A DNA stretch of 64,000 nucleotides from a virus: IMG/VR virus record IMGVR_UViG_3300045988_182866; one strand, written 5' to 3'. The translations under genes were made by a program, and so were the position numbers. Below the pieces are notes generated by a model. It ran no database searches. It worked only from the letters and a program-made list of their open reading frames with translations, and had not been told where the DNA came from. Below are positions 289 through 59,377 of the stretch, one piece after another (the stretch's first letter is position 1; each line of letters begins with the position of its first letter).

Positions 289-304
289 GCTTTAAATATC
301 CTCA

Positions 305-9419: not shown

Positions 9420-9502
9420 ATAAATCAAAGTAATATGACTCCATGAGAAACTAGATCTTATTGCATATCTCTTTCTTATTTGATTAAAATAACTTTAAAT
9501 TT

Positions 9503-9536
9503 AAAAAAGCGGTGAGAACGTTCTCACCGCTTTTTT
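9503..9536. terminator. Bidirectional rho-independent terminator lying between the two facing fibre-tip exons.
   Basis: A perfect stem GCGGTGAGAA/TTCTCACCGC has an A-run on its 5' side and a T-run on its 3' side. It directly follows the stop of the minus-strand fibre gene. Confidence 0.7.
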
Positions 9537-11718
9537 ATTTAATTTTAATAAGATAGGTTAAAGATATGTTATAAGGTCTAGTTTCTTTGGGGGCAATAGG
9601 TCCTATTAGGTTACTTAGGTTTAATTCATATTGAACATTAGCAAAAGCCCAATGGTAATCTCTATGTTGTGATAAAAAGTTCGCTTCACTTAGATAAGTT
9701 TGAGAAAAAGCACCAGTTCCACCGACATATAATGGATAACGCTGTCCCCAATTTTGAGAACGAACACAAGTTTTAAAAGTACTTTTGGTTCCTCCTTCTC
9801 CTGAAAGGGAACTTAAGACATATGGATTAGTTTGAGGATCTTCTATATCAAGAGGAGTATGAGCAGGAATAGTATATGTACCTTCACTTGTAATAGTAGA
9901 AGATGTAGTGGAAGCACCTCGAATAAATCTATTTCTTAAGTCTGGCAAATTAAATTGTCCGCCTCCCCCAATTACTGTTAAATGTGAAGTAACTGGATGA
10001 GCCGTAGTATTAAAAGTAATTATAGCTAATCCTTGGCTTAATCGTAAAAATGGAATTCGCCATGGATTAGAATCAGACTCTAACCACCACTTAGACGGTA
10101 CATGGATGTTATAATATCCATCATTTTGAATAGTATAAGTATTTTGCTCATTAATGGTAGCTAACAGTGTACTATTTGTATAGATAGTAACAGGCAATGG
10201 TGTTCTTATGCCGTTCAATACAATACCAAGGCCTTGAGCAGTAATTACTGTTCCCTTCTTCAAATATAAAGACGGTTCATAATCATAAGCAGATTCGCCG
10301 CTTCTATTAATATTAAAGGGGGCAATATTTGTTGTTAATATTCCTTCAAGAACCAATGGTATATCGTTATAAGGCAAACTAGTTCCATCCAATACAAGGT
10401 AAAAATGCCTTTTAACACCTTCATTATCTGGATTCCAAGATTGCCAAACATCTAAATTAATTGATGTAATAGTATTAAAATTAAAAGTATATTGACCGCT
10501 TACAAATTGAGCTGTGTTAGTAACTTCTTCCGGACAATATAAAATATAATTAACATAGCCTTCAGAAAGTTCTACATATGTCCTAGCATTAGAACTATAT
10601 TTGGCATCTATAGTACATTCCATTTCAGGAACTGTTACATTTATTTTTGGTAATTGCTGAAATGTATTATTACCAGTAGCGGGAATCCATAAACAATAAA
10701 TTCCATCCTCGGGAATAATATAAGATCTGTTATCAACAGTAGAAATTAAAGGGCTACCGTCAACTCCAAAAGTTGATAAATTTAATTTTTCTTTATTATA
10801 GATATAAGCTTCGGATGCCCCGGCATTTCCAGCTAAAGTATATCGGGCTCCCTGAATTTGAACAACTGTGTTAGCGGGCAAATAGGCATATTCTGCGTGG
10901 GCAGCCTGATTTGGACTTTGCTCATAATTAATAGTTCTACCAGTTTGCCGCCAACTAATTTTTACAGATGGATTTTCAAATGTATCAGTAGTATTAAATT
11001 CAATATTACTAAATTGGAGTTCATTTTTAACTAGTTCAAAATCTAAATCTCCTTGAGCCTGTAAAGAATTTATTTCTAATTTGGTCAAAGTAGTAATATT
11101 ATTTTCATGAAATAAAGATGCTGCAATAATAGGAAGGCTTAGCCTTAATCTTTTATAAGATAATCTACTTGTACCGACTACCATTCGGTACAAATCAGGG
11201 AAATTATCAAAATTATATTCTTGCCCAGTTAATGAATGCCGATTTTGGCCATCGGCAAAATCATAATAATCCCTGAATCGCTGAGGAAGCAAATTAAGAT
11301 CTTTTTGGGCAATTGCAACCGGAATAACAGTGCCCACTGGAACAGTTTGCTCCATAATTTGATTATCGGTAACAAACTGTTTAATAATTTCAATTAAATC
11401 CTGATGCTCATAATTTCCGGCATTATCGCCGATGAGAATATTATTTTTAGCAGGAGCAACAGTAGGAACATTAGTTTGAGTGCCAAATGTAATCTTATCT
11501 CTTAATTGAGTTTGGCTGACAATTTCTTTTTGAACTTCAATATGTTCAGTACCAATAGACAATGCAGAATTATTACCCATTGAATCAGCAACAGGAACGG
11601 GTGTTAATCCAATACCAGTATCTGAACCGTCATCGGCCGGAGAAACACGTAAAATTCCTCGGAAAGATTTTGAAATTGGCTTTTTTGCTACGTCTCTATT
11701 GTTTTGTTCTGTTGCCAT
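9535..11718 (-). CDS. Tail-fibre protein carrying a T4 gp12-like (short tail fibre) C-terminal receptor-binding tip (727 aa).
   Basis: The C-terminus KETRPYNISLTYLIKIK matches the T4 gp12 C-terminus ETRPWNISLNYIIKVKE. A His-containing motif lies upstream of it. The ORF is long and rich in G, S, T and N. Confidence 0.75.
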   Translation of the reverse strand: MATEQNNRDVAKKPISKSFRGILRVSPADDGSDTGIGLTPVPVADSMGNNSALSIGTEHIEVQKEIVSQTQLRDKITFGTQTNVPTVAPAKNNILIGDNAGNYEHQDLIEIIKQFVTDNQIMEQTVPVGTVIPVAIAQKDLNLLPQRFRDYYDFADGQNRHSLTGQEYNFDNFPDLYRMVVGTSRLSYKRLRLSLPIIAASLFHENNITTLTKLEINSLQAQGDLDFELVKNELQFSNIEFNTTDTFENPSVKISWRQTGRTINYEQSPNQAAHAEYAYLPANTVVQIQGARYTLAGNAGASEAYIYNKEKLNLSTFGVDGSPLISTVDNRSYIIPEDGIYCLWIPATGNNTFQQLPKINVTVPEMECTIDAKYSSNARTYVELSEGYVNYILYCPEEVTNTAQFVSGQYTFNFNTITSINLDVWQSWNPDNEGVKRHFYLVLDGTSLPYNDIPLVLEGILTTNIAPFNINRSGESAYDYEPSLYLKKGTVITAQGLGIVLNGIRTPLPVTIYTNSTLLATINEQNTYTIQNDGYYNIHVPSKWWLESDSNPWRIPFLRLSQGLAIITFNTTAHPVTSHLTVIGGGGQFNLPDLRNRFIRGASTTSSTITSEGTYTIPAHTPLDIEDPQTNPYVLSSLSGEGGTKSTFKTCVRSQNWGQRYPLYVGGTGAFSQTYLSEANFLSQHRDYHWAFANVQYELNLSNLIGPIAPKETRPYNISLTYLIKIK
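9820..9888 (-). repeat. Right inverted repeat (IR-R) located inside the fibre gene, about 105 codons before its stop.
   Basis: It is the reverse-complement match of 9177-9245. It encodes SEGTYTIPAHTPLDIEDPQTNPY within the 9535..11718 gene. Confidence 0.8.
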
Positions 11719-12952: not shown

Positions 12953-12991
12953 GCTGTGGAATATTTAAAGTACACTTAAATAAAGTTACGC

Positions 12992-15447: not shown

Positions 15448-16351
15448 CTGTAATGTCTAATCGATTAGCTAAAGTAGAGTACCAATAGTCAATTTTTCTG
15501 TAAATATTCCAGAATTCAAGTTCTTTTATAAGAAGAGTAAAATTTTCCTTATTTGCCTCAGGTGTTTCACTAATACATTTTTCATAATGCTCTTCCTCTT
15601 CAGTAGAAATAAGATTATAATCAAATTTCATCATCTTTAAATTATGTTTAAAAATTTCTAATTCTTCTTCCTTTAATAGGGAAGAATCCTTAAGAGAATC
15701 TATATCATAATCAATCTTAAGAAGAGAAATAATATCTTGAATCCTGGTTGACCTAATTCCCTTAACACCGCTAATATTATCTGCTCGGTCACCCCTGAGA
15801 GCTTTGAAAATTATGTATTCAAAACCATTATTAACATTATAATAATCTTTAAGATATAATTCAGTTATAGACTGTTTCTTTTTAGGATTATAAATGATAT
15901 TTCCTGGAAAATCTGAGCCAATTAACTGATAAAAATCAGTATCAGTTGAAACTACAATACTTTGGTTGGGATATTTTTTCATCGCTAACCAAAAAATAAT
16001 ATCATCCGCTTCTAAATTAATAGGATTGATTTGAATAATGCCCAAAGAATTCAACAATTCCATAATTACTGGCATATATTCATATACTTCTTTATTCTTA
16101 ATTTCATCCCGCTGAGCTTTGTACTCAGAATCTAGCATTTTTCTAAAATTATAGCAGTCTTCTTTTCTATAATCCCATACACAAATAACTTTTTTAGGAG
16201 AAAATAATTCAACTAAAGATTTAAGAGAATTAAGAAATAGATAAATGTGAGAAGTTGGTGTAGATTTTTCTAATACTTTTGAAACATGGAAAACTCTATG
16301 CAACAAATTATTAGCATCAATTATTAAGTTCTTCTGTGTAGAATTTCTCAT
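15410..16351 (-). CDS. rnh: RNase H / 5'-3' flap exonuclease (T4 rnh-like, FEN family).
   Basis: The EADDIIFW motif and the acidic clusters typical of FEN/5'-3' exonucleases are present. Size is 313 aa. Confidence 0.8.
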   Translation of the reverse strand: MRNSTQKNLIIDANNLLHRVFHVSKVLEKSTPTSHIYLFLNSLKSLVELFSPKKVICVWDYRKEDCYNFRKMLDSEYKAQRDEIKNKEVYEYMPVIMELLNSLGIIQINPINLEADDIIFWLAMKKYPNQSIVVSTDTDFYQLIGSDFPGNIIYNPKKKQSITELYLKDYYNVNNGFEYIIFKALRGDRADNISGVKGIRSTRIQDIISLLKIDYDIDSLKDSSLLKEEELEIFKHNLKMMKFDYNLISTEEEEHYEKCISETPEANKENFTLLIKELEFWNIYRKIDYWYSTLANRLDITDVISSLFDFETE

Positions 16352-16394
16352 AAAATTTATTATACATTATCCTCAATAATCGACGGTGAAATTA

Positions 16395-21787: not shown

Positions 21788-24316
21788 ATGATTAAGATAG
21801 ATACTTATCGAGATTTAATGACCCGCCCAATTTTGGAGGCATTAATTGAAAAAAGAAAAACAAAAAGCGATGAAACTGAGCAGCGTCCAGTAGTTAATAC
21901 TCGAACTAAGCTGGAAAATCGCGGAAAAGGCGAAGAAAGCTCTTATGTATTTGATTTACCCGAAAAATCAACCTTTAGAAATACTGCCGGAAGAGGATTG
22001 CTTGAATTAGCTGCAGATGAGCAGGATGTTCAATATATGATTGCTCAAATTACTCTTTCTAACTTAGGCCTTATTCCTAAAGTTTATCGCTCCAGGAGAA
22101 TTAACGTTAATCCATCTAATGTTTCCAAGATTAATAAGATTAAAACTCTCCTTACTCAATTATTTTCTCATACCGTTTTAGATGATGATGCTCCTGCCGG
22201 GGTCCTTAAGACACTTTTGGCCAATCCTAAAATGGAAATTGACAATAAAGTTGGCTTTAATACTTTTGATTTGCTTAATCGAGTTAAAAGTTGGGACCAG
22301 GTTCTTGACAATTTAAAGAAAAATGTAGCCCGTAGCATTGCAGGTTTATCGGGAAGAGCAGAAAAAACCCATAAAATCTCTCAAGACTTCCATGATCGTA
22401 TTGGTAAAGCTGATTGGAGTGATACTGTAGATGCCCCCCAAACTGTTGCTGATGTAGCTAAAAATATTTTTGGTGAATCTGTTGATGAAATTCCTGAAAC
22501 ATTGACTCAAGAGGAAAAAGAAAAGATGTTTGTTAATGCTTACTCTATTCTTAAACCTCTTTATGAAGCTGCTTCCAAATCCGGATTAAGTCCTGCCGGC
22601 TATCTTAAATTCCAGCAAAACCTCGACCGAGTTGCCGGGGCACTTAAAACTAATGAAATCAGCAAATATATCAATGAAATTGAGGCAAAGCGTCAACCAA
22701 GAACAGTTGAGGACTATAAAGATGTCTTAATTGAAGCATTAGCACGAGCCGTTAGGGGCGATGATTCCAAAATGCAGGTTAGTAATCTTATTTCCAAGCA
22801 AGCTACTACCGCTTTACGCTGGTTAACTCGGCATTTAACCAAACTTGGCTATACTGGCGGTTTAAAGATTGCTAATGTTCTCGATTATATTAAAAATGGG
22901 GATGATGAATATGCTAATGATGCCCGTTATTATCTGGAAAACATCTATAATATTACTCCGGATCAATTAACTGTACAAAATTTCCCATCCTTTAAAAAGT
23001 TTGTTAATACTTTATATCAAAACTTTGAAAAAGTAATGGGTTCTTATAAAGCTCTTAAAGATCGCCCAAAAGCATCTCAACGCCTTAATCTTAAAAATCC
23101 TGATAAGCCGATGGTTACTGACCGAAAAGGCGGTATCGGCCAATCTATCCCGGCTATTAAAAAATCTATCGAAGCTTCAGAAAAACTTCTGGCTAATTTT
23201 GATGAAAAAAATGAGCGGTTACAAAAGGCTATTGAATTCGATAAAGAATGGAAAGCTGGTAAAGCTAAGATGTATGTAGCCGTTACTGCCGGTACCCTTG
23301 GCTTGGGAGGTCGAACTGATACTTCTCCTGTAATTGAATTTGGCGAAGTAACTCGGCCAGAACTTAACAAGATGACCGCCGATAACCTTGCTAATGGTTA
23401 TATTGATCTTGTTACTCCAAAATATAAAGAAGCATATAAAAATCTTCTTGAATCTGATCCTGAATTACCTAAAAAGATTAGGAATCACATTATTAAGCAG
23501 AAGAATGTTGCTCCTAGCAAAGTTGCTAACCAACTTCGATTTGACCTTGGCAAAACTTTGAATAAAGACGGCTCTTCTAACCGTCAATGGTATATTGATC
23601 GAATCAATAAGTTTAAAGAACAACTTGCCGCTGTTTCTGGAAAAAAAGTTGAAAAAGAAACTGTCGAACGTAAGAAGCTTTCCGATTTCTCCGATGAAGG
23701 AGTTGAGGGTGATATTGATATGCCTTATACAATCTTTAAAGTTGATGAAACAGCTCCTCGCCTTATTAGCCCAATTATTGTTGCCCTCAAGAAAACACTT
23801 GAAAAATATAATGCAACAGTTGACTGGTCTACTAACTTTGAAGATGAAGAAGGATATATTACTATCTATTATCCGGAAAATGGCAAGTTCTTTAATGCTA
23901 AAGATCCTAAAAAGCTTGTCGAAGACCTTCGTAAATCTATTCAAACCATGGCAGCTCGCCTTGGATATGATTATGTAGATATTACAACTTATTCTTATGA
24001 ATTTGCTAAAGACCAATATGATTCTTCCGGATTTGTAATACCTCAAGATGATGAAGATTCCGAAGAAGATATTGAAATAAACAATGATAGTGAATCAGCT
24101 GAAATAGAATCTGAATTTGAAAGTGAAGATGAAGAAGAAACTGATGATCCTCTTGTATCGATGGCGCTTGATGCAATCGAACATAAAAAAGATGATTGCG
24201 AATCTGCCTCTAAAAAACCTGTTAAACGAGAAGTAAAATTCATTCCCAATAAGGACAGATACCCTAGGGAACGAATTCAAAATCAATGGCGAAAGAGCTA
24301 TTTCTGGAACCAATAA
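21788..24316 (+). CDS. Large hypothetical protein with an acidic D/E/S-rich C-terminal tail (842 aa).
   Basis: Long ORF of complex composition. The C-terminus is DEDSEEDIEINNDSESAEIESEFESEDEEETDD. Confidence 0.6.
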   Translation: MIKIDTYRDLMTRPILEALIEKRKTKSDETEQRPVVNTRTKLENRGKGEESSYVFDLPEKSTFRNTAGRGLLELAADEQDVQYMIAQITLSNLGLIPKVYRSRRINVNPSNVSKINKIKTLLTQLFSHTVLDDDAPAGVLKTLLANPKMEIDNKVGFNTFDLLNRVKSWDQVLDNLKKNVARSIAGLSGRAEKTHKISQDFHDRIGKADWSDTVDAPQTVADVAKNIFGESVDEIPETLTQEEKEKMFVNAYSILKPLYEAASKSGLSPAGYLKFQQNLDRVAGALKTNEISKYINEIEAKRQPRTVEDYKDVLIEALARAVRGDDSKMQVSNLISKQATTALRWLTRHLTKLGYTGGLKIANVLDYIKNGDDEYANDARYYLENIYNITPDQLTVQNFPSFKKFVNTLYQNFEKVMGSYKALKDRPKASQRLNLKNPDKPMVTDRKGGIGQSIPAIKKSIEASEKLLANFDEKNERLQKAIEFDKEWKAGKAKMYVAVTAGTLGLGGRTDTSPVIEFGEVTRPELNKMTADNLANGYIDLVTPKYKEAYKNLLESDPELPKKIRNHIIKQKNVAPSKVANQLRFDLGKTLNKDGSSNRQWYIDRINKFKEQLAAVSGKKVEKETVERKKLSDFSDEGVEGDIDMPYTIFKVDETAPRLISPIIVALKKTLEKYNATVDWSTNFEDEEGYITIYYPENGKFFNAKDPKKLVEDLRKSIQTMAARLGYDYVDITTYSYEFAKDQYDSSGFVIPQDDEDSEEDIEINNDSESAEIESEFESEDEEETDDPLVSMALDAIEHKKDDCESASKKPVKREVKFIPNKDRYPRERIQNQWRKSYFWNQ

Positions 24317-34998: not shown

Positions 34999-35634
34999 TC
35001 AATTTTTAAAGGTGCGCAGATTACACACTTTATTTTTAGTATGTATCTTGGTAAACAACAAATTTTCTATAGATTTTCTATTATTTTTCCAGTCTCTTTC
35101 TTCGACATTTATTAGTAGAATATTTGCTTCTTTACAACGCCTTTCCTTTTCGGCATGACAGCCAGGCTGTCTTTCTTCTTTAAGTTTATGCCAGTGAGAT
35201 CCATTATATTCAATGCCAATTCTTAATTCGGGAAGAAATATGTCAAGCTCCATTCTTCCTATTTGAGTCTTATCATTTTCAAGAACTTCTCCCGAATAAA
35301 TTGACTTAATATATGCACAAACTTCTTTTTCTCCTCTAGATGTCTGTTTAGATAAGGCACATATTGGACAACCTTGTTGAAGATACCAATGACTAGACGG
35401 TATTTGTTGAAATACTCCGTGTACAGGACATATGATATTAACCTTAGAATGTGCGTTTACATAATTTACTAAAGAATAATCATATTTTTCTCCATGAACT
35501 TTTCTAGACCTCTTAATAAATTCATCAATTGTTAACTTTTCAAAACCAAAACATTTAGGACACCCTGAGCCATTTAAATGACTATTTGGTTTTTGCCAAA
35601 AAATACCATGTTTAGGACAAATAATTGATAGTTG
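34999..35634 (-). pseudogene. C-terminal fragment of the IS-disrupted homing-endonuclease-like gene (zinc-ribbon modules plus a DUF559/Vsr-like PD-(D/E)XK domain).
   Basis: The frame is open back to a stop at 35635-35637 with no start codon. It begins mid-module (IICPKHGIFWQ...). Its C-terminus ELDIFLPELRIGIEYNGSHWH parallels the intact paralog at 60588..61517. Confidence 0.7.
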
Positions 35635-36863
35635 CTAATTTCAATGAAATTCATTGAAAATTAACTTATTTTATCATGGGGACCATATACTCCCAAGCGA
35701 AGGATATTGATAGCAGCATTAATATCAGCATCAAATGTTCCTCCACAAGTCTTACAGTGATATACTTCACCTTGTCGACTCGACTTATCAACAGTATTAC
35801 AAACGTGGCATCGTTGAGATGTATAAGCAGGAGGAACTTTAATCAACTGGAAACCTTCCGTCTCAGAAAGTGACTCAAACTTATTCATTACTTTAATGTA
35901 ACTCCACCTTTGTAACTTGTTGTTAAACTTTTTAGAAAACTTTGATTTGTACTTAATGCATTTAAGATTCTCGATAATTACTTGCCCACAATCTTTATGT
36001 TCGTTATAAAATTTCTTAACGGCTAGATTGATTGCTTCATCACGCTCCCTAAGAGCTCGTTTGAAAGCTTTAGACCGTTGTTTCTTGCGAGAAATCTTTT
36101 CATAAATGTCCTCAAGTTCTTTACCATAAACCTTTCCATCACTACATGCGAGTAACTTTTTGTAACCACAATCAACTCCTGCTGATAATTTATTCTTTTT
36201 CTTTTCAGCTTCTTCTTTTTCCCAAAATAATTTCAACGAGAAATTATCAGACAGCATGAAACTATTTTTTAATTTCCAACCATTATTTTTGAACCTCAAA
36301 CTTACTCGATGATGATTGATTGGAAGTTTAAGTAGTATAGCTCGATGTTTTGTCTCTTGAAAATATGGTGAAAATATCTTGATGAAACAGTCAAACTCCT
36401 TAGTCTTATCCTCTTCAATATCCCATAGCATATAGTTAAGATTAATACTATGGGATTTAATTACTGACTCAGTAATCTTCTTAATTCTTTTTTTCTTAAG
36501 TAAAGTAACTTGCGAACGGTAAATCTGTGAGGCCTCTCGATAACATAACGCTCTCCATCTACTATTAGAAATATCATTTAATTGTGGGCAAAACTTACTT
36601 GAAAGATTTTGTTTCAATGGTAATTCACCATCATGAATTTTATGAAGATATAACTGAAGCAACTCTTTATAATCCTTAATAATCTTCCAGTACAAATCGA
36701 TTTTATCTCGATTTGCATACTTAAGTGTATGGGAAGATGAACGAATCACTTTGTTAACATTTTTATCTAGCAAGGTAAAATTAAAACTTAGATATTTTTT
36801 TAAGAAAAAATGAAAATTTTGATTATAAATTCATTTTATTTCTTTGAAACTAATGAATAATTA
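35626..36863 (-). mobile_element. IS200/IS605-family TnpB-only element (IS1341-like, no tnpA) inserted into a homing-endonuclease-like gene; boundaries approximate.
   Basis: The flanking sequences join into one continuous ORF (...HSQKKI | IICPKHG...). The element contains tnpB. A perfect 10-bp subterminal palindrome lies at 35639-35659, right after the tnpB stop. A left-end hairpin lies at 36807-36837. Confidence 0.75.
35661..36773 (-). CDS. tnpB: TnpB (IS605 OrfB-family RNA-guided nuclease) with its RuvC-like catalytic residues and zinc finger intact.
   Basis: RuvC-I reads GVDCG. RuvC-II reads VIIENLK. The zinc finger reads CHVCN...CKTCGG. RuvC-III reads DADINAAINI. Size is 370 aa. Confidence 0.85.
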   Translation of the reverse strand: MLDKNVNKVIRSSSHTLKYANRDKIDLYWKIIKDYKELLQLYLHKIHDGELPLKQNLSSKFCPQLNDISNSRWRALCYREASQIYRSQVTLLKKKRIKKITESVIKSHSINLNYMLWDIEEDKTKEFDCFIKIFSPYFQETKHRAILLKLPINHHRVSLRFKNNGWKLKNSFMLSDNFSLKLFWEKEEAEKKKNKLSAGVDCGYKKLLACSDGKVYGKELEDIYEKISRKKQRSKAFKRALRERDEAINLAVKKFYNEHKDCGQVIIENLKCIKYKSKFSKKFNNKLQRWSYIKVMNKFESLSETEGFQLIKVPPAYTSQRCHVCNTVDKSSRQGEVYHCKTCGGTFDADINAAINILRLGVYGPHDKIS

Positions 36864-37588: not shown

Positions 37589-38149
37589 TTAATCTTCTGA
37601 ATCTTCTTCCGGTCTTACATAAATTGGAGCGTCTGCGCATTGAATAAGTTCCGGATATTTTACTTCCCTATATTTTTTAACTTTTTCAGCGTGCTTCTTT
37701 TCATTTTTTATGATTGCACAGAAGGACCAGTAACAGATTTGCGTCCAAAAACTGAAAGCCTTAGACCCATAATTCACACTCCATTTCTTCCCACGCAGTG
37801 CGGTCATACATTTAATGAGAGCACTTGAAATCATTTCATCTTTATAAGAATAACGGCTAAAGCTCGAAGACCTTGCTAAACCTTGCGCAATCTTAAGGAA
37901 ACATTCCGCGATGTAATTCATATTCGGTTTATCGCTGTCCTCAACTTCATAAAACCTTTTAATTGCCGCGTCAAATTTAGCCGAATCTACATAATAGTCC
38001 TCTTTTTTAGTCTTTCCTCGATTCTGAACAGTAATAAACGCCCTTTTCTTATTCGGATCATTCAGCATTTCACGCTTTTTATCCAAATCTTCAGGCGGAC
38101 GTGTTTTAGTAGAAGGCTGTACAAATTGTTCTTTATTAGCTTCAGTCAT
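37589..38149 (-). CDS. Putative late-transcription sigma factor, T4 gp55-like.
   Basis: Size is 186 aa. IAQGLARSSSFSRYSYKDEMI...FWTQICYWSF resembles the gp55 segment IAEGLSKRFNFSGYT...YITQACFNAF. It lies adjacent to the 46/47 homologs, as in T4. Confidence 0.5.
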   Translation of the reverse strand: MTEANKEQFVQPSTKTRPPEDLDKKREMLNDPNKKRAFITVQNRGKTKKEDYYVDSAKFDAAIKRFYEVEDSDKPNMNYIAECFLKIAQGLARSSSFSRYSYKDEMISSALIKCMTALRGKKWSVNYGSKAFSFWTQICYWSFCAIIKNEKKHAEKVKKYREVKYPELIQCADAPIYVRPEEDSED

Positions 38150-38172
38150 GTTAATTCAATTATAATACAACT

Positions 38173-39675
38173 TTAGGCCTTTAGGCCAATTATTTTAAAA
38201 GGAATCTTTTCTTGCTCATATAATTTGATACGTTCATCTCTATGCCTTAACGCATATTTTGTATTGGGAATTATATCGATAACCCGGGCAAGAGTTTTAT
38301 TTTCCTTTAAACGCAGTATTCGTCCGATGGATTGAATTATTCTTACATTGCTTTTTCCAATCAAACCAGGAAATACAATATTATGCAAATTTTTGATATT
38401 GATACCTGTTGAGAATATTGAAGCTTGAGCAATTAACAAAATATTGTTTTCTTTTTCCAATTGCTCCTTAATATCGGTTCGTTCTTCAATCGGCACCTCT
38501 CCTTGAATAAAGTAAACTTTTCTATTCGGATCGGCTTCTTTAAATTTTTGCAGAAGATTTTCCCCATGAATAATCCTATTGACCAAAATTAAAGTATTAT
38601 TGCTTAATTTTGAAACAATAGAAGTAATAGTTGAGTTAAACTGGTCATTATTGCTCAACCATTCGGTTTCTTCCATGAATCCAAAAGGCCTTTTAACACC
38701 TTCATCATCCAGGACATAAGTCGGAATATCATTTAATTGAATATTAATTCCAAAAGTTGAAACCTGCGTCAGGAATTTATCTTTTCTTAATTCTGCAGAA
38801 GGCAGTTCAAATCTTACAGGTCCAATTTTGCCTAAGATTGACCATTTGTCATGTTTATCATGTGGTAATGTACCTGTGAAGCCATATCTTAACTTAGCCG
38901 GAAGATCTGCGATAATCTTAGAAATTTTATTATTGGCCTTAATTGAATGAACTTCATCGATGATAATACAGTCAAATTTTTGTATCTCTTTTTTAAGGTC
39001 ATCATACTGGGCTCTGAGAATACTTGCTCCGCAAATAACGACTTGTGATTTCTTATCGAAAGGAATATTTGAAAACCATTTGGAAATAGAATATTTGAAA
39101 TTCTTTAAATGCGAAGAAATATCATTAAAAGTCTGATTGGCCAAATCAGGAAAAGGACAAACCAATAAAACTTTTCTGGCTAATTTATTCTTAAGAATAT
39201 TCCGGATTAATAATGCGCAGCATACTGTCTTGCCCGCTCCTGTTCCTAAAATATAAATACCGTTTTGCTTATTAAGGGCAATTTGCATCGATTCTTTTTG
39301 ATAAGGCCTGACTTCTGATCCTTTATCATCAATATAAATGTTCTTCGTATCAAGAACTAAATCATTGCTCTGAATATATTTTTTAATGCCGTCATCTAAT
39401 TTAAATTTAACAGAACGATCATAAAATGTATTCTTAACAAATGCAAGTATGTCTCGTAATAATCCGATTTCAAATTCACCGGACATTTTAATGCAAGATT
39501 TCTTAATATATTCTTTACTCGGTTGAATTTTGATGCCTTTTTGACGACATCTCTTGACATACATATGATTTCGTTCAACTGTAGAAAAATGATCTCTCAA
39601 TTGTTCATAAGCATCAAAGTACTCAAATATAATCCTACCAAGATTATTTGATGTTCTGTTGATTTCGATAATCAT
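38173..39675 (-). CDS. Superfamily-2 DExH-box helicase (possibly UvsW-like).
   Basis: Motif I reads LGTGAGKT, motif II IIDEVH, motif III GFTGT, motif VI QSIGRILR. Size is 500 aa. Confidence 0.75.
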   Translation of the reverse strand: MIIEINRTSNNLGRIIFEYFDAYEQLRDHFSTVERNHMYVKRCRQKGIKIQPSKEYIKKSCIKMSGEFEIGLLRDILAFVKNTFYDRSVKFKLDDGIKKYIQSNDLVLDTKNIYIDDKGSEVRPYQKESMQIALNKQNGIYILGTGAGKTVCCALLIRNILKNKLARKVLLVCPFPDLANQTFNDISSHLKNFKYSISKWFSNIPFDKKSQVVICGASILRAQYDDLKKEIQKFDCIIIDEVHSIKANNKISKIIADLPAKLRYGFTGTLPHDKHDKWSILGKIGPVRFELPSAELRKDKFLTQVSTFGINIQLNDIPTYVLDDEGVKRPFGFMEETEWLSNNDQFNSTITSIVSKLSNNTLILVNRIIHGENLLQKFKEADPNRKVYFIQGEVPIEERTDIKEQLEKENNILLIAQASIFSTGINIKNLHNIVFPGLIGKSNVRIIQSIGRILRLKENKTLARVIDIIPNTKYALRHRDERIKLYEQEKIPFKIIGLKA

Positions 39676-40437
39676 TATAATTCAATTATAACGTAAAATA
39701 TTCAAAATTGATCAAAAATTATTCAAATAATTTAATATTAATAACTTAAATTACACAATATTTATTTGATTTTAATATAATTTATTTAAATTTAATTAAT
39801 TATATCAAATATAATTGGTATACTGGTCTCGCGCGCGGGAGGAGAATACCAATTATATTTTAATTATATTCAATTATATTTTAATTATAATAAAATTATT
39901 TTGAAATTTATTTTCAAAATTTTAATTTTATTTTCAAATTTATTTTGAAATTTGAAACATACGAACTTATTAAGGGGTACGCGCGCGTACCCCACATAGC
40001 CCATTAGGGCAATATTCATAAGCGTGCAGCGCACGCTTTCTACTTTATATTTAATTAATTAAATATAAATAAATATTTATTTATATTTAAATTATAATAT
40101 AAAATATTAAAAATAATTTAAAATATTAAAAATTTTTTCTATGCGCGCCCGCGCCCGCACACACGCGCACACGAAATCACCGAGCGCTGTTTTGGAGGTT
40201 TAACCAAATAGATAATTGTCTAATCCGAATAAGATTTGAATAAGTACATTTATTATCAGGATCTCTTCGGTACTCTATGGATAATAAAAAACCAATCTGA
40301 CTTATAGAAATCAGATTGGTTTCGACAATTTATTTTTAAAATCTCCTGGAGAATTATTTTAAATTCTTTTACCCTCCAGGTAGTAAAGTACAAGCCTAAA
40401 AGTTTTTAAAATTTTCTAGATATTTTTTAGAATTAAA
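39676..40437. repeat. Long non-coding island of AT-rich perfect palindromes, direct iterons and three GC-rich CGCGCG-core elements; candidate replication origin or regulatory hub.
   Basis: No ORF is present. Perfect palindromes include ATAATTGGTAT...ATACCAATTAT, GGGGTACGCGCGCGTACCCC, AGCGTGC-AGC-GCACGCT, TATATTTAATTAATTAAATATA and AAATAAATATTTATTT. Direct repeats include AATTATATTTT and ATTTATTTTCAAA. Confidence 0.6.
40283..40322 (-). terminator. Rho-independent terminator for the minus-strand gene 40438..40836.
   Basis: The stem AAACCAATCTGA/TCAGATTGGTTT (12 bp) has a 10-nt loop. On the minus strand it is followed by TTTTTTATT. Confidence 0.6.
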
Positions 40438-40836
40438 TTACAGAACTTGAAGCTGCATGATCTCGACGATGTTCTTAACGTCATTCGTAATATAGGCGAA
40501 GATCTTTTCGACTTTATTCAAATATTCAACCAGCATCTTTTGATCTTCGATCTCTTGAGTAATTTCCTGCATAGGCTTGGTATTGGCAATAACATTTTTC
40601 ATAGAAGCAGTAGACATTTGAACCAATGGCTCCTGCTTTTCAAGGGCAGTTTTTTCAAGAGCTTTCTTCTTTCGTTCCAATCTATTGAGTTCCTGTGTTT
40701 CTAAAATCAGCTTTGTTACCCAATAATGTTTTCTTTGAGGAATTTCAAAAGATTTTTGCTGAATAACCATTTCATTTAATTTCAAATCTTCAGCAATTTC
40801 TTTTGAGTATTGTTCGAGTTTTTCTTGAGGTGTCAT
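40438..40836 (-). CDS. Hypothetical coiled-coil protein (132 aa).
   Basis: ORF track. The product is rich in charged residues and heptad-like. Confidence 0.45.
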   Translation of the reverse strand: MTPQEKLEQYSKEIAEDLKLNEMVIQQKSFEIPQRKHYWVTKLILETQELNRLERKKKALEKTALEKQEPLVQMSTASMKNVIANTKPMQEITQEIEDQKMLVEYLNKVEKIFAYITNDVKNIVEIMQLQVL

Positions 40837-40863
40837 GTCTTTAACTAATGTTATTATAACATC

Positions 40864-53428: not shown

Positions 53429-53543
53429 ATTCCACACTTAAACATTTTAAGAATATTTTAAAATAAAATGAAAGTATTTTAAATGGCAGCAAACTAAAGA
53501 TTTAATAAAGACTTATTTTAAAGGACTTTAAATATAGAAAATT

Positions 53544-55951: not shown

Positions 55952-56767
55952 TCACTCAATATCATACTGAATTCCACCATTGTTTAAAGCATTTTGAAGG
56001 TCATTTTCTACACTACAGTTATTAAATTTAACATAACTTAAACGGTTGGCTTTCTGAGTAAGAAAATCTGTGTTAGAAGTATTCAATACGGTATGATCTC
56101 CATTAATAATCAAAGTCTGGATAACATTATTGGAAAGATTAATATTTTGAATTTGCGAATTTAAATTTATTTCAAAGGTTCCTGTGATTAATGAATCTCT
56201 TATATCAAGATAAGTAAATCTCATTTCTGGGGCTAAATTCAAATAACAAAGATTTGTTTCATAGACAGTTAATTCTGGACAAGAAGGAAGATTCAATTCT
56301 AAAGAAGTAATATTTTGATTTCTGGAAGTAAAACTCTTGATTAAATCTTTATTCTGAATAATCATACCGCTTGAATCAAGGGCAACAGGAGAAAATATTA
56401 AAGAATTAATTGCCTGATTTCCTTCATAAATTGTAAATTGTGCATTAATATCTTCTTCGGTTGAATTAATGTCAAGGTATCTAAAAACTTTATTATTTGT
56501 TTCTACATAAAGCTTTCTTGTTTCTGTTTCGGCAACTTGGTTAATATGATAACCAAAAGATACTGTATTAATATCTGGTAATAAAGTTAAAGCAATACAG
56601 TCGGGAGATAATGTATTTTTATATTGAACAAACCTGGCTGTTTGGTTAAGATCCGATAATTCTCCATTATCTGATAATCCAGGTAAAAAAACTTGATTAT
56701 CATTAGGAAGTAAATTTTCTAATGATGATGAAGTAATTTGGGAAAGTTTAATATAGCTATCGGACAT
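55952..56767 (-). CDS. Hypothetical protein with a leucine-rich-repeat-like C-terminal half (271 aa).
   Basis: Repeated segments such as LxLxxNxI/L (NLNSQIQNINLSNNVIQTLIINGD) occur. It is co-oriented with two downstream genes. Confidence 0.45.
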   Translation of the reverse strand: MSDSYIKLSQITSSSLENLLPNDNQVFLPGLSDNGELSDLNQTARFVQYKNTLSPDCIALTLLPDINTVSFGYHINQVAETETRKLYVETNNKVFRYLDINSTEEDINAQFTIYEGNQAINSLIFSPVALDSSGMIIQNKDLIKSFTSRNQNITSLELNLPSCPELTVYETNLCYLNLAPEMRFTYLDIRDSLITGTFEINLNSQIQNINLSNNVIQTLIINGDHTVLNTSNTDFLTQKANRLSYVKFNNCSVENDLQNALNNGGIQYDIE

Positions 56768-57521
56768 TGATCGGAATAATATTTTTATCTGCTGCTATTT
56801 GAAGTTCGTTTTCTGTGAACTGTTCATTAAGGTAATTCACCATATAAAATGGAGTAGGGACATTATAAGGACTTAATGAAGAAATAAACGGAGTAATATT
56901 ACTCATATTATTACTCATAATTCTTCCATGGGTAAAATTACTTAAAATATAATATTTTTTATGAAGTTTAGAATATCCTAGAATAATTTTAATAGAATTG
57001 CCTTCATCTACATTTAAAGTATTAAAATTATGAAGATTTCTAATATCTAAAATATCAGTATCAATCGTATTTGGTCCATTAAAATAAATTGTTCTTATTG
57101 TCGGGCAAGCTGAAAGGTCTAATTTACCAACCGTTCCGGTATAAATGAATAATGAAACGGGAGAGCCTTCTTTACATGTAATATAGCAGCTTTTATCAAA
57201 AGCTAAATCAAAATTTACCGGAATAGTCCCGGTAATGGGACTATATGATGTACTTACTTCAGAATAAGGATATTGTATTATTGTTGTCTTAGTACCTCCA
57301 GCCGAATCATCATAGCAACTTATTGTTCCGTTAGATGTCCATTTACTCCAAATAAAACGTCCTTTGGGAAAGACCATAGTAGTTGGCTTAAGCATATCAC
57401 CTAATTCTTCTATTAAGAGAGAAGCTTTAATAGAAGATTCATCTTGTAAAATCAATATTGGACTTTTCAATCCAAGAGATTTACATTTCTCTAAATCACT
57501 AAATTGTACAATATTAGACAT
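56757..57521 (-). CDS. Hypothetical protein (254 aa).
   Basis: ORF track. It overlaps its neighbours by a few nucleotides, consistent with an operon. Confidence 0.45.
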   Translation of the reverse strand: MSNIVQFSDLEKCKSLGLKSPILILQDESSIKASLLIEELGDMLKPTTMVFPKGRFIWSKWTSNGTISCYDDSAGGTKTTIIQYPYSEVSTSYSPITGTIPVNFDLAFDKSCYITCKEGSPVSLFIYTGTVGKLDLSACPTIRTIYFNGPNTIDTDILDIRNLHNFNTLNVDEGNSIKIILGYSKLHKKYYILSNFTHGRIMSNNMSNITPFISSLSPYNVPTPFYMVNYLNEQFTENELQIAADKNIIPINVR

Positions 57522-59377
57522 TATAGATAGAAAAGCCAGTTATAAGTTTTAAGAGTATCTAAAGTTTTGGCAATGGCTTTAGAAGAACCCTGAATACCGC
57601 CTGAAGTATATTTTTTACCGTACATGTATATAATTCCAGCTTCTTTCCCGAATCTATTCGGAAGAAGATTAAGAAATTTTTCCAAATTTGCCTTATTTGT
57701 TAAAAGATTGGTTTCTGAAATATTAATATACTGCAAGTCATTTTGAACATTAATAACTCCTTCTCCAAATGTATCGGGATTTTTTAACTTAATTCCAGTA
57801 ATATCAAGGCTTGTTAATGTCAGCTGGTCAAAAACTAATTCCAGATCAACTTTAGAAGTATTAAGGTCAGATAAATCAATTCTACTAATTTTGGTATTTG
57901 AGATATTAAGATATTCTAATTTAGAATCAGTGCCTTTGGGAAGAATTAATCTAGTGAGCTGGGAACAATTAGAAACATTAATACTAGTAAGATTGGAATT
58001 TGCTGATAAATCCAATTCTTGAATAGGATTGTCACTTAAATCTAATATTTGAAGATTGGAACAACTTTTTAAGTTAATTCGAGCTATTTTTTTACCTGGA
58101 TTTTCAAAAGAAGTGATACTGCCTTTATCTCCGGAAATTTTTAATGTTTTATTTTTCTTTTGGAAATAGTCAAAATTAAAAGTTTCATCTGCCGGAAACC
58201 ATTCTTTGTCAAAAGTAATTTTTCCAGAACTTAAATCAATTTGATTTTGTCGATTATTAAAGAACCAATCAATATTAACATTTCCTGTTCCTCCAATATT
58301 ATAAGAATAATTATCAAAACAATAATTAACTAAATCAACAGAAGACTGGAAAATAACTCCGTTCAGAGTATACCTATACTCTGAACGGATGAATGCTTTA
58401 AAATTAAAATCCCTAACAACAATAGTCCCTACACCTGGCGTTGAGTAACATCCCCATTCCGGAGCATTTTTATATGTAGCAGCATCGGTAGAAGCTATAA
58501 AATTTTCACGAATAATATTCCAATCTCCGGTTGTTTCATCTAAGATATATAATCTGCCGATGATGCCATCATCGGCAGAAGGAGCATATTCAAATTTGAA
58601 TTTTTTAAAAGATAATCCATCCCAGCCTTCTACAGGAGCACAATTAGCTAAAGGCTCGCTAACTGAATTACCTATATAAACCATCCAGGTATCTGTAGCT
58701 GAATCATAGATATTTCTAAAATTCACAACAAATCTAAATTGAAGATTTGGTTTATTATTATCATAAGCTCCAAATGAAATGAAAGAGTGCTGGTTAGGTC
58801 TATTTTTAAAGAAGTTCCTATCAATGACATTGATAGGAGTAAAATTATATGGCGAAGGCCTCTGAATCTTCATTGGAGGAAGAGCTACAGTAAATGTAGA
58901 TTCTCCAATGCCTGTACTTTTAATTTGTTCTTGTTGCTCATTGGTTAATTGTTTGTAATAATAAGCAATTGTGCCTGTTGACGTATCATTAATCCAAACA
59001 CCTTCTTCATTTAAAAGAGGGGCAGTTTGTTCATCTGGCGTACCAATATTACAATTTGCATAAAGTGAACCATACCTTGACCATTTTCCATTTTCTTCTA
59101 GCATGGGGTCAGGATTTTCCGGATTCCATGTATAATTCCCAAATGTATAAAATCCGCCTGGAATTAATTCCAGTCTTTGAATATCATCCAATTCAAAGGA
59201 AAGAAAATCTTGCTGATTATCTAGAGTATGAGTAAAACCTTTACATGCGTCAACTAATGTATTAAAATCAGCCCTTTTGCTAATAAAATTATCATTAATT
59301 AAAACATTGTTGCTCATAAAAGGTCGATAGTATTTAAATGGAAAAAGAGAACTGAGAATTAAGATTTTAAATATCAA
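57521..59377 (-). CDS. Leucine-rich-repeat (LRR) domain protein (618 aa).
   Basis: The C-terminal third contains consecutive LRR units: LKSCSNLQILDLSDNPIQELDLSANSNLTSINVSNCSQLTRLILP...LEYLNISNTKISRIDLSDL. Confidence 0.55.
   Translation of the reverse strand: MIFKILILSSLFPFKYYRPFMSNNVLINDNFISKRADFNTLVDACKGFTHTLDNQQDFLSFELDDIQRLELIPGGFYTFGNYTWNPENPDPMLEENGKWSRYGSLYANCNIGTPDEQTAPLLNEEGVWINDTSTGTIAYYYKQLTNEQQEQIKSTGIGESTFTVALPPMKIQRPSPYNFTPINVIDRNFFKNRPNQHSFISFGAYDNNKPNLQFRFVVNFRNIYDSATDTWMVYIGNSVSEPLANCAPVEGWDGLSFKKFKFEYAPSADDGIIGRLYILDETTGDWNIIRENFIASTDAATYKNAPEWGCYSTPGVGTIVVRDFNFKAFIRSEYRYTLNGVIFQSSVDLVNYCFDNYSYNIGGTGNVNIDWFFNNRQNQIDLSSGKITFDKEWFPADETFNFDYFQKKNKTLKISGDKGSITSFENPGKKIARINLKSCSNLQILDLSDNPIQELDLSANSNLTSINVSNCSQLTRLILPKGTDSKLEYLNISNTKISRIDLSDLNTSKVDLELVFDQLTLTSLDITGIKLKNPDTFGEGVINVQNDLQYINISETNLLTNKANLEKFLNLLPNRFGKEAGIIYMYGKKYTSGGIQGSSKAIAKTLDTLKTYNWLFYL

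What the first reader, a model, noticed from the sequence alone, without database searches (positions are those of the whole stretch)
39676..40437. 760-bp non-coding island of perfect palindromes and iterons with three GC-rich CGCGCG-core elements in a roughly 30% GC genome
Intergenic gaps elsewhere in the window are under 150 bp. This 760-bp ORF-free stretch holds the following elements. A perfect 11-bp inverted repeat ATAATTGGTAT/ATACCAATTAT flanks GGTCTCGCGCGCGGGAGGAGA at 39812-39857. Direct iterons AATTATATTTT and ATTTATTTTCAAA/ATTTATTTTGAAA lie at 39851-39960. A perfect 20-bp GC palindrome GGGGTACGCGCGCGTACCCC lies at 39975-39994. A hairpin AGCGTGC-AGC-GCACGCT lies at 40021-40037. A 22-bp perfect AT palindrome TATATTTAATTAATTAAATATA and a 16-bp AAATAAATATTTATTT lie at 40046-40086; they contain TATAAATA on both strands, the T4 late-promoter consensus. 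The direct repeat AAAATATTAAAAA occurs twice. An alternating purine-pyrimidine tract TATGCGCGCCCGCGCCCGCACACACGCGCACACG lies at 40141-40174 and has Z-DNA potential. This density of dyad symmetry plus iterons is what replication origins, packaging sites or regulatory protein landing pads look like. The CGCG and GCGC cores are also candidate targets for the C5-methyltransferase encoded 2.5 kb away.
Basis: seen in the sequence. Interest (0 to 1): 0.65.

Follow-up and report, generated by a model that had tools for sequence, protein, structure and literature searches.

The report
Conserved origin-like DNA island in gut phage
Between two recombination genes of a very common 200-kb human-gut phage lies a real non-coding DNA module of CpG-rich blocks separated by stretches of pure A+T. 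Its layout, though not its sequence, is kept across related phages, and it looks most like a replication origin, but no function has been shown.

Summary
Window 39676-40437 is the longest stretch of the 64 kb without a credible ORF. It holds all four CGCGCG sites, three of the four longest perfect palindromes, 10 of 16 tandem-repeat calls and the least stable DNA, a 95-nt run with no G or C.

The island lies between uvsY-like and uvsW-like genes of a roughly 201-205 kb T4-like phage that is widespread in human-gut metagenomes. Six further lineages (49-63% UvsW identity) keep a non-coding gap at this position. Each gap has 2-4 GC-rich blocks separated by almost pure A+T, with little shared sequence, and five of the six keep CGCGCG. 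A seventh lineage carries the same module in a nearby gap. Two outgroups have uvsY abutting uvsW.

My best reading (about 0.4) is a DNA-level module built around an unwinding element, most likely a replication origin, joined to the uvsY terminator and the uvsW promoter region. T4 oriF sits at uvsY, and a GC3-skew switch independent of gene orientation maps to 38-48 kb.

- **Not supported:** the T4 late-promoter reading, conservation of the AT palindromes and iterons, and a tie to the neighbouring methyltransferase gene.
- **Also found:** no Rfam family matches, and metagenome contigs often end inside the island.

The parts
40438..40836 (-). uvsY-like recombination mediator gene, upstream neighbour of the island in the direction of transcription
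   Evidence: PHROG phrog_231 UvsY-like, E = 5e-8. Pfam UvsY is weak. The exact protein is listed in 2145 blocks of the metagenome collection, on contigs of about 201-205 kb.
40345..40380 (-). Hairpin CCTGGAG...CTCCAGG in the uvsY 3' untranslated region
   Evidence: Read from sequence. The 3' region 40324-40437 is 100% identical in L028. Single-sided changes in L003, L026 and L027 break pairs.
40288..40323 (-). Intrinsic terminator of uvsY: 16-bp stem followed by a T run
   Evidence: Terminator scan. The sequence is identical in the strain variants retrieved with it.
40175..40287 (.). Conserved spacer between the terminator and the first GC block, with clustered strain substitutions
   Evidence: 93% identity to L028. 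It is kept in the L010 haplotype, whose remaining ~600 nt cannot be aligned. A small sense-strand hairpin has only one-sided, G-U-compatible changes, which is weak evidence.
40141..40174 (.). On the minus strand it reads CGTGTGCGCGTGTGTGCGGGCGCGGGCGCGCATA. It includes an 18-nt strictly alternating purine-pyrimidine run at 40156-40173.
   Evidence: An equivalent (CG/CA)n block precedes the A+T run in L010, L021, L022, L023, L040 and L038. Strains differ by a 6-nt GCGGGC unit. Several metagenome contigs end here.
40044..40138 (.). 95-nt run of pure A+T, the candidate DNA unwinding element. It contains the 26-bp and 32-bp AT palindromes and 18-19-nt repeats.
   Evidence: It is the least stable 50-mer and 100-mer and the longest A/T-only run of the 64 kb. 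The longest A/T-only run of the locus is in the gap in L004 and all six other lineages with a gap (37-115 nt); in the L010 haplotype it is 39 nt. Composition is conserved but sequence is not: 71% identity with 22 gapped columns against L028.
39974..40038 (.). Central GC hairpin cluster: 20-bp palindrome GGGGTACGCGCGCGTACCCC (39974-39993), GCCC-ATTA-GGGC (39999-40010) and AAGCGTGC-AGC-GCACGCTT (40020-40038)
   Evidence: Fold z = -4.8 and -3.8 on the two strands. 98.5% identical in L028 while the flanking A+T diverges. Absent from the L010 haplotype, which has GCACGC-GA-GCGTGC instead.
39851..39953 (.). Second A+T spacer made of phased tandem repeats: 11-nt unit AATTATATTTT, about 9 copies, and a 12-nt unit AAATTTATTTTC
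   Evidence: Tandem Repeats Finder. Copy number differs in L028. The repeat sequences are not shared by other lineages.
39812..39857 (.). GC block 3: an 11-bp perfect inverted repeat enclosing CTCGCGCGCGGGAG
   Evidence: DNA fold z = -4.9. CGCGCGAG-type blocks lie before uvsW in L022, L023 and L040. IMG/VR contig L001 starts inside its CGCGCG core.
39676..39811 (-). A+T-rich region upstream of uvsW. The 14-nt TTATAATTGAATTA (39678-39691) is also found just upstream of the gp55-like gene.
   Evidence: 100% identical in L028. The 14-nt match to 38152-38165 is, and the upstream sequences are. Haplotypes L010 and L002 have different sequence here.
38173..39675 (-). uvsW-like superfamily 2 helicase gene, downstream neighbour of the island
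   Evidence: Pfam ResIII, DEAD and Helicase_C. 32% identity to cyanophage proteins annotated UvsW, E = 7e-48.

Best explanation
The core of the island (about 39812-40174) is a DNA-level cis-acting module. It has three CpG-rich, hairpin-forming GC blocks, partly alternating purine-pyrimidine. These blocks separate two stretches of almost pure A+T, one of which is the most easily melted DNA in the window.

I infer that it works as a DNA unwinding module, most likely a replication origin of this T4-like phage. Negative supercoiling or transcription entering from the uvsY side would open the A+T run. The GC blocks would confine the bubble, and may bind a factor or extrude as hairpins or Z-DNA. The replisome would load there, as at the promoter-plus-unwinding-element origins oriF and oriG of T4.

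The two outer parts are ordinary gene furniture: the uvsY terminator at 40288-40323 and the uvsW promoter region at 39676-39811.

Shown here: the anatomy, its statistical exceptionality, its conservation as an architecture, its relocation in one lineage, and its absence from outgroups. Inferred: any role in replication.
For: 1. **Exceptional melting region.** The three least stable 50-mers and 100-mers and a 95-nt A/T-only run lie here, flanked directly by blocks of 68-77% GC.
2. **Architecture conserved without sequence.** Six further lineages keep a 235-519-nt non-coding gap between uvsY and uvsW: L021, L039, L022, L023, L040 and L024 (49-63% UvsW identity).
   - The five analysed for blocks have 2-4 GC blocks and spacers of 0-29% GC.
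   - L039 shows GC blocks and a 45-nt A/T-only run in its sequence.
   - The longest A/T-only run of each locus is in the gap in all six.
   - The least stable 50-mer is in the gap in the four tested.
   - The longest alternating purine-pyrimidine tract (18-42 nt) is in the gap in window, L010, L021, L022, L023 and L040.
3. **CGCGCG is confined to the gap.** It occurs in the gap of window, L021, L022, L023 and L024 and nowhere else in about 107 kb of their flanks. The same holds for L040.
4. **The module moves as a unit.** L038 has neither uvsY nor a gap before uvsW. It carries a 47-nt GC block, about 190 nt of A+T and a second GC block in a 304-nt gap two genes away.
5. **It is an insertion into a conserved gene order.** In cyanophage S-CAM9 and in L037, uvsY overlaps or abuts uvsW.
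6. **Neighbourhood.** In T4 the record annotates oriF at the 5' end of uvsY, beside uvsW and segE. The T4 review PMC3016281 states four points:
   - oriF and oriG are a promoter plus an A+T-rich unwinding element whose sequence is exchangeable;
   - oriE has iterons;
   - the active origins sit at transcription-divergence and skew-shift points;
   - UvsW removes origin R-loops.
7. **Skew.** A divergent gene boundary lies 400 nt away at 40837-40863. Third-codon-position GC skew has an orientation-independent switch with best breakpoints at 38-48 kb. None of 1000 permutations fitted as well.
8. **Not coding, no known RNA.** There is no conserved ORF and no Rfam family.
Against: - There is no functional data of any kind.
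- No promoter reading into the A+T run could be identified, and no initiator protein is known.
- G-richness of the first block, expected for R-loop initiation, is inconsistent across lineages (+0.28 to -0.05).
- The iterons and AT palindromes are not conserved, even between strains.
- One co-circulating haplotype (L010/L029) replaces about 600 nt and keeps only the first GC block, an A+T-rich stretch and one small GC palindrome.
- L039 lacks CGCGCG and alternating tracts.
- The skew switch is broad and rests on a few long genes.
- T4 oriF lies on the other side of uvsY.
- Hairpins plus A+T-rich DNA could equally be terminators and promoters.
Confidence: 0.4

Rival explanations
1. The island is a transcription boundary. 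It would be a stack of terminators or RNA-stabilising hairpins that insulates uvsW from uvsY transcription, followed by an A+T-rich promoter region for uvsW. The GC blocks would act as RNA hairpins in a long uvsW 5' leader or uvsY 3' tail.
For: - A canonical terminator follows uvsY.
- L022 has a 10-bp-stem hairpin followed by TTTT in the sense direction.
- The GC blocks fold well as RNA.
- A few strain substitutions are G-U-compatible on the sense strand only.
- A promoter-like TTATAAT lies just before the uvsW start and is shared with the gp55-like gene.
- In T4, UvsW must not be made early (PMC3016281), so insulation is a plausible need.
Against: - The window's GC hairpins are not followed by U runs.
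- The palindromes are symmetric, so the folds do not say which strand matters, or whether RNA matters at all.
- Outgroup phages overlap uvsY and uvsW with no insulator.
- The module also occurs between two other genes in L038.
- A+T-only runs of 37-115 nt and 18-42-nt alternating purine-pyrimidine tracts are not needed for termination or promotion.
Confidence: 0.22
2. The island is a selfish or neutral hyperplastic module. It would be a non-coding cassette that persists and moves by recombination or homing-endonuclease co-conversion, or as a MITE-like element with inverted-repeat ends. It would have no function for the phage.
For: - Strains with 98-100% identical flanking proteins carry at least three unalignable haplotypes.
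- The module is relocated in L038.
- L040 and L023 have 22-49-nt inverted repeats at the two ends.
- The region is crowded with mobile genes: a SegE-like GIY-YIG gene, HNH endonuclease genes and TnpB genes, with a TnpB inserted beside uvsY in L010.
Against: - There is one copy per 64 kb and one per locus.
- No target-site duplication was seen.
- Terminal inverted repeats do not exceed controls in most lineages.
- The same position and the same composition pattern persist down to 49% UvsW identity while the sequence turns over. That is the signature of selection on architecture, not of a decaying parasite.
Confidence: 0.15
3. The island encodes one or more structured non-coding RNAs. In an A+T-rich genome, GC-rich islands are often RNA stems.
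For: - Local hairpins are strong, with z = -3.8 to -4.9.
- A sigma-70-like promoter match at 39752-39781 (+) and a terminator-like hairpin at 40020-40038 (+) would bracket a transcript of about 250 nt.
- RNAalifold on L022, L023 and L040 gives a long-range helix with one compensatory pair.
Against: - No Rfam family matches at gathering thresholds. At E up to 10, the best score was 27 bits against a cut-off of 80.
- The stems are perfect palindromes, so they are equally DNA features.
- The covariation term is unfavourable (+0.68) with only three sequences.
- The long A+T-only spacers and the copy-number variation are unlike a folded RNA.
- There is no primary-sequence conservation of loops.
Confidence: 0.1
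4. The island is a packaging (pac) or other terminase recognition region.
For: Repeats, bent A+T DNA and GC boxes resemble the pac regions of phages SPP1 and P1 (my own knowledge, not tested). Many metagenome contigs end in the island.
Against: - Contig ends are scattered over about 400 nt. They include an adapter read-through and a fold-back artefact, which fits coverage loss at extreme composition.
- T4-type phages package by headful without a unique site (T4 genome circularly permuted with no defined ends, PMC3016281).
- The island is not near a terminase gene in the window.
Confidence: 0.04

Closest known systems
[quoted passage not shown]
   Same: Both lie in a T4-type replication and recombination gene neighbourhood that includes uvsY, uvsW and a segE-type gene. 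Both include an A+T-rich, easily unwound element whose exact sequence need not be conserved. Both lie near a switch of transcription strand and of nucleotide skew.
   Different: T4 oriF is at the 5' end of uvsY and uses the MotA-dependent uvsY promoter. Here the element is downstream of uvsY and beyond its terminator. No promoter into the A+T run was identified, and no MotA system was found in the window. T4 origins are not described as having CpG-rich or alternating purine-pyrimidine clamps, or multiple GC hairpins.
Iteron-type origins: T4 oriE, phage lambda ori, plasmid origins
   Same: Both have tandem short direct repeats at about one helical turn next to an A+T-rich region and a GC-rich palindrome (oriE iterons in PMC3016281; lambda layout from my own knowledge).
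   Different: The repeats here are degenerate (69% match) and vary in copy number between strains. They are not shared by related lineages. No initiator gene is identified.
Yeast mitochondrial ori/rep elements: three GC clusters A, B and C in A+T-rich DNA
   Same: By analogy only, from my own knowledge. Both are a few hundred bp of nearly pure A+T, interrupted by three short GC clusters that can form hairpins, in a very A+T-rich genome.
   Different: They are unrelated systems and no homology was tested. The yeast element has a defined promoter next to cluster C and occurs in several copies per genome.
Intrinsic (Rho-independent) terminators
   Same: 40288-40323 (-) is a textbook example. The 36-bp palindrome at 9502-9537 elsewhere in the window is another.
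   Different: The GC blocks of the core lack U tracts, and the core carries long A+T-only spacers.

Membership tests
T4-type R-loop origin (oriF/oriG class) | A+T-rich DNA unwinding element of low helical stability | tested here: met
   40044-40138 has no G or C over 95 nt. It is the least stable 50-mer and 100-mer of the 64 kb. The equivalent run is in the gap in L021, L022, L023 and L024 and in L039 and L040.
T4-type R-loop origin (oriF/oriG class) | A promoter (middle-mode in T4) that transcribes into the unwinding element | tested here: inconclusive
   The sigma-70-type scan finds 17 matches against 10.9 expected, none conserved or positioned convincingly. uvsY transcription is aimed at the element but meets a strong terminator first. 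One copy of the phage's probable late motif TTTAAATAT lies inside the run and is not conserved in L028.
T4-type R-loop origin (oriF/oriG class) | Persistent R-loop, and autonomous replication of a plasmid carrying the element during infection | not testable with these tools
   This needs infected cells. The host is not identified and no cultured relative exists in the phage collection; the best UvsW match is 32%.
Iteron-type origin | Three or more evenly spaced direct repeats that are conserved binding sites | tested here: inconclusive
   About 9 copies of an 11-nt unit at 69% match. Copy number varies between strains, and the repeats are not shared across lineages.
Iteron-type origin | A cognate initiator protein encoded nearby | not tested
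   The neighbouring ORFs of 145, 164 and 138 aa have no family match. Nothing links them to the repeats.
Rfam RNA families | Covariance-model score at or above the family gathering threshold | tested here: not met
   There are no matches in the window or in six related loci. With a permissive E-value the best score is 27 bits against a cut-off of 80.
T4 late promoter (TATAAATA) | The motif recurs just upstream of late genes | tested here: not met
   TATAAATA occurs 4 times on both strands in 64 kb, two of them inside the island palindrome. The motif found 5-17 nt before start codons is (C)TTTAAATAT, in 4 of its 6 copies.
MITE or insertion-sequence-derived element | Terminal inverted repeats, target-site duplication and several copies | tested here: not met
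   Inverted repeats exceed controls only in L023 and L040. There is a single copy per window and per locus. No duplication was seen.
Z-DNA-prone tract | Alternating purine-pyrimidine (CG)n or (CA)n run of roughly 12 nt or more | tested here: met
   Runs of 18 nt at 40156-40173 and 14 nt at 39977-39990. Relatives have tracts of 18-42 nt. Whether Z-DNA forms in vivo cannot be tested here.
Target of the neighbouring C5-methyltransferase | Enzyme specificity matches CGCG or GCGC | not testable with these tools
   Only the N-terminal catalytic motifs (residues 25-118) match M.HhaI. L022 and L024 keep CGCGCG but have no methyltransferase gene at the syntenic place.

The most novel reading that the evidence does not exclude
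The GC blocks are the only CpG clusters in this roughly 30% GC phage. They could act as a methylation- or supercoil-sensitive switch. C5-methylation by the phage enzyme would favour a B-to-Z transition or hairpin extrusion in the (CG)n/(CA)n tracts. That would gate melting of the adjacent pure-A+T run, and so the firing of a replication origin. This would be a previously undescribed class of 'CpG-clamped' origin in a highly prevalent human-gut phage clade.
Probability: 0.06. Interest if true: 0.8.

Novelty: new variant of a known kind. Interest (0 to 1): 0.5.

Why it matters
Replication origins are unknown for almost all uncultured phages. This phage is among the more widespread large phages of the human gut: its exact UvsY protein is listed in 2145 blocks of the metagenome collection. 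A single compact module that can be recognised by composition would give a concrete handle for three uses:
- marker-frequency estimates of in-situ phage replication;
- building replicons;
- understanding why assemblies of this phage break at one place.

It also shows selection acting on architecture (CpG blocks clamping A+T runs) rather than on sequence. Homology searches miss signals of that kind.

Tried and rejected
- **Close cultured relative.** megablast against 50,697 phage records found nothing.
- **tRNA or tmRNA.** None found.
- **Known RNA family.** None found.
- **Copies elsewhere in the window, or similarity to TnpB element ends.** Only short A+T matches turned up. The two 370-aa ORFs are unrelated to each other.
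- **Spread of the GC elements in IMG/VR.**
  - The 20-bp palindrome gave 0 hits.
  - A 21-mer of GC block 1 hit one unrelated GC-rich phage, L032, in an iteron-rich gap and extended to about 33 of 36 nt.
  - A reversed-sequence control of the same composition gave 2 hits, so I treat the L032 match as chance.
- **Bacteroides-type TAnnTTTG, extended -10 and GTTATAAT motifs as the phage's promoters.** None is enriched upstream of genes.
- **DnaA box.** One 8-of-9 match, TTATCCATA on the minus strand at about 40273-40281, is not conserved among strains (read).
- **Consistent G-richness of the first GC block, as expected for R-loop initiation.** Not consistent across lineages.
- **Whole-element dyad symmetry.** It is clear only in L023 and L040.
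- **Covariation in the conserved spacer.** Only one-sided transitions were seen.
- **Methyltransferase specificity from solved structures.** Uninformative.
- **The '947-nt gap' at 15448-16394.** This was an artefact of my own ORF filter; a 313-aa ORF fills it.
Full report
**What is there**

Window 39676-40437 lies between two minus-strand genes.
- The upstream gene (40438-40836) is a UvsY-like recombination mediator (PHROG phrog_231, E = 5e-8).
- The downstream gene (38173-39675) is a UvsW-like helicase (Pfam ResIII, DEAD and Helicase_C; 32% identity to cyanophage UvsW).
- Further downstream are a gp55-like late sigma factor, HNH endonucleases, a TnpB-like gene and gp47/gp46-like nuclease subunits.
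- A 27-bp divergent gap at 40837-40863 separates uvsY from a plus-strand block that includes a SegE-like GIY-YIG endonuclease and a 646-aa C5-methyltransferase.

The window comes from a phage of about 201-205 kb and about 30% GC, found on many human-gut metagenome contigs. It has no close cultured relative. Only 1 of 62 genes has a Shine-Dalgarno-like core. I read that as a hint of a Bacteroidota-type host, from my own knowledge; it was not tested.

**Check of the observation**

On many measures the island is the most unusual 0.76 kb of the window.

| Measure | Share in the island |
|---|---|
| CGCGCG sites | 4 of 4 |
| CGCG sites | 9 of 23 |
| Four longest perfect palindromes | 3 (32, 26 and 20 bp) |
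| Tandem-repeat rows with score ≥50 | 10 of 16 |
| Three least stable 50-mers and 100-mers | all |
| A/T-only runs of 35 nt or more | both (95 nt and 37 nt) |
| GC-rich alternating purine-pyrimidine runs ≥12 nt | 2 of 2 |

The local hairpins fold far better than shuffles, with z = -3.8 to -4.9.

Three corrections apply.
- Two other gaps of about 410 nt exist.
- The 34-nt tract alternates strictly for only 18 nt.
- The right 150 nt is the uvsY 3' region, with a canonical terminator at 40288-40323.

**Strain-level comparison**

Contigs with identical or 98-99% identical UvsY and UvsW carry islands of 762, 782 or 866 nt.

In L028, whose flanking genes are 97.5% identical, divergence is uneven.

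| Segment | Identity to L028 |
|---|---|
| uvsY 3' region (40324-40437) | 100% |
| uvsW upstream region | 100% |
| GC hairpin cluster | 98.5% |
| GC block 1 (differs by a 6-nt unit) | 76.5% |
| A+T run (22 gapped columns) | 71% |
| Iteron region (copy number differs) | 85.7% |

The window's AT palindromes are replaced in L028 by a different 22-bp AT palindrome.

Haplotype L010/L029 keeps the first roughly 265 nt through GC block 1. It then has about 600 nt of unalignable non-coding sequence. L002 shows a third sequence upstream of uvsW.

Many contigs end inside the island, including three of genome length (L013, L020, L027). One ends in a Nextera adapter and one in a fold-back. I read this as coverage loss and microdiversity at extreme composition, not as genome termini.

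**Deeper comparison**

UvsW homologues at 49-63% identity gave seven further lineages.

Six of them keep uvsY, then a non-coding gap of 235-519 nt, then uvsW: L021, L039, L022, L023, L040 and L024/L025. The gaps share almost no sequence with the window's island, though L022, L023 and L040 share AATTCACG(T/C)AACGC with one another. They do share a layout.
- In the five lineages analysed for blocks there are two to four GC blocks of 14-39 nt and 64-93% GC (12-55 nt in the window and L010). Spacers have 0-29% GC. L039's sequence shows GC blocks and a 45-nt A/T-only run.
- The longest A/T-only run of each locus is in the gap in all six. The least stable 50-mer is in the gap in the four tested.
- The longest alternating purine-pyrimidine tract of the locus (18-42 nt) is in the gap in window, L010, L021, L022, L023 and L040.
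- CGCGCG is in the gap in window, L021, L022, L023 and L024, with no copy in about 107 kb of their flanks. The same holds for L040. L039 lacks it.

L023 and L040 also have 22-49-nt inverted repeats joining the first and last GC blocks. This does not exceed controls in the window.

The seventh lineage, L038, has neither uvsY nor a gap before uvsW. It carries the same module in a 304-nt gap two genes away: a 47-nt GC block, about 190 nt of A+T and a second GC block.

Two outgroups have uvsY overlapping or abutting uvsW: cyanophage S-CAM9, and L037 at 38% UvsW identity. The module is therefore a clade-specific insertion into an old gene order, kept as an architecture while its sequence turns over.

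**Function**

The module is not coding and matches no Rfam family. The features under selection are compositional and symmetric, which points to DNA rather than RNA.

Several points fit a replication origin.
- The T4 record annotates oriF at the 5' end of uvsY, next to uvsW and segE.
- The T4 review (PMC3016281) describes oriF and oriG as a promoter plus an A+T-rich unwinding element of exchangeable sequence. It describes oriE as carrying iterons, and places the active origins at transcription-divergence and skew-shift points. It also describes UvsW as the helicase that removes origin R-loops.
- Here the island holds the most meltable DNA of the window, 400 nt from a divergent boundary.
- Third-position GC skew contains an orientation-independent switch with best breakpoints at 38-48 kb. 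None of 1000 permutations fitted as well.

Other points count against it.
- No promoter into the unwinding run and no initiator protein could be identified.
- G-richness of block 1 is inconsistent across lineages.
- The iterons are not conserved.
- One haplotype drops most of the core.
- The skew signal is low in resolution.

I put an origin-type unwinding module at about 0.4. The rivals are a transcription boundary (0.22), a selfish or neutral cassette (0.15), non-coding RNA (0.10) and a packaging site (0.04).

- TATAAATA is not this phage's recurring promoter motif. (C)TTTAAATAT sits 5-17 nt before four start codons.
- The methyltransferase's specificity cannot be inferred. Two lineages keep CGCGCG without that gene at the syntenic place.

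**Verdict**

The feature is real, statistically exceptional and evolutionarily maintained, and its function is unproven. It is a new variant of a known kind: an origin-like or regulatory non-coding module of a T4-type phage. Interest is moderate.

Noticed in passing
window 35254-36863; compare L004 8310-9620: A TnpB-like gene (370 aa, Cas12f1-like TNB and OrfB_IS605 domains) lies at 35661-36773, followed by a 407-nt ORF-free stretch at 35254-35660. In other strains (L004 type) a single 436-aa DUF723/HNH endonuclease gene occupies this place. In the window it appears as 227-aa and 84-aa ORFs flanking the TnpB gene, which suggests an insertion into the endonuclease gene. The 407-nt stretch could hold its guide RNA; I did not test this.
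   Followed up: partly
L010 3463-4701: Another strain carries a different, 412-aa TnpB-like gene between the 145-aa ORF and uvsY, next to the island. The surroundings of the island are a hot spot for mobile genes.
   Followed up: no
window 39773-40175; loci L001, L003, L013, L020, L026, L027, L030, L031: Metagenome contigs, including three of genome length (about 201 kb), often end inside the island. They mostly end at GC block 1, the A+T run or the CGCGCG of block 3. L013 ends in the Nextera adapter sequence CTGTCTCTTATACACATC. L020 starts with a fold-back through the AT palindrome. The island seems to be the hardest place in this genome to assemble.
   Followed up: partly
window 291-299, 12961-12969 (-), 53527-53535, 59366-59374: (C)TTTAAATAT lies 5-17 nt upstream of four start codons, which is 4 of its 6 copies in the window. 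It is probably this phage's late-promoter core, read by the gp55-like sigma factor encoded at 37589-38149.
   Followed up: partly
window 39678-39691 and 38152-38165: The same 14-nt TTATAATTGAATTA sits 2 nt before the start codons of the uvsW-like gene and the gp55-like gene. This suggests a shared promoter or translation-initiation signal.
   Followed up: no
whole window: Only 1 of 62 predicted genes has a Shine-Dalgarno-like core within 20 nt of the start. This hints at a host that does not use Shine-Dalgarno pairing, such as Bacteroidota.
   Followed up: partly
window 9502-9537: The longest perfect palindrome of the window is 36 bp: TAAAAAAGCGGTGAGAACGTTCTCACCGCTTTTTTA. It lies at a convergent gene junction and looks like a bidirectional terminator.
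   Followed up: no
L021 about 4839-4868, L039 about 3818-3846, L024 about 4962-4992 (inverted): Three lineages share a polypyrimidine direct repeat, TTTCTTTCTTTATATATTTCTTTCTTTA, upstream of uvsW. In L024 it is in inverted orientation. It is absent from the window's island.
   Followed up: no
L032 10615-10652: An unrelated GC-rich IMG/VR phage has CCGTGTGCGCGTGTGTGCGGGCGCGTGCGGGCGCGCATGA in an iteron-rich non-coding gap. It is nearly identical to GC block 1 of the window. A composition-matched control pattern gave 2 hits, so I treat the match as chance.
   Followed up: yes
window 305-9181, 21788-24316, 55952-59377: Long genes that would face a fork coming from about 40 kb head-on have negative or near-zero coding-strand GC3 skew (-0.12 to -0.23). 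Co-oriented genes average +0.12 to +0.20. This is an orientation-independent skew component.
   Followed up: partly
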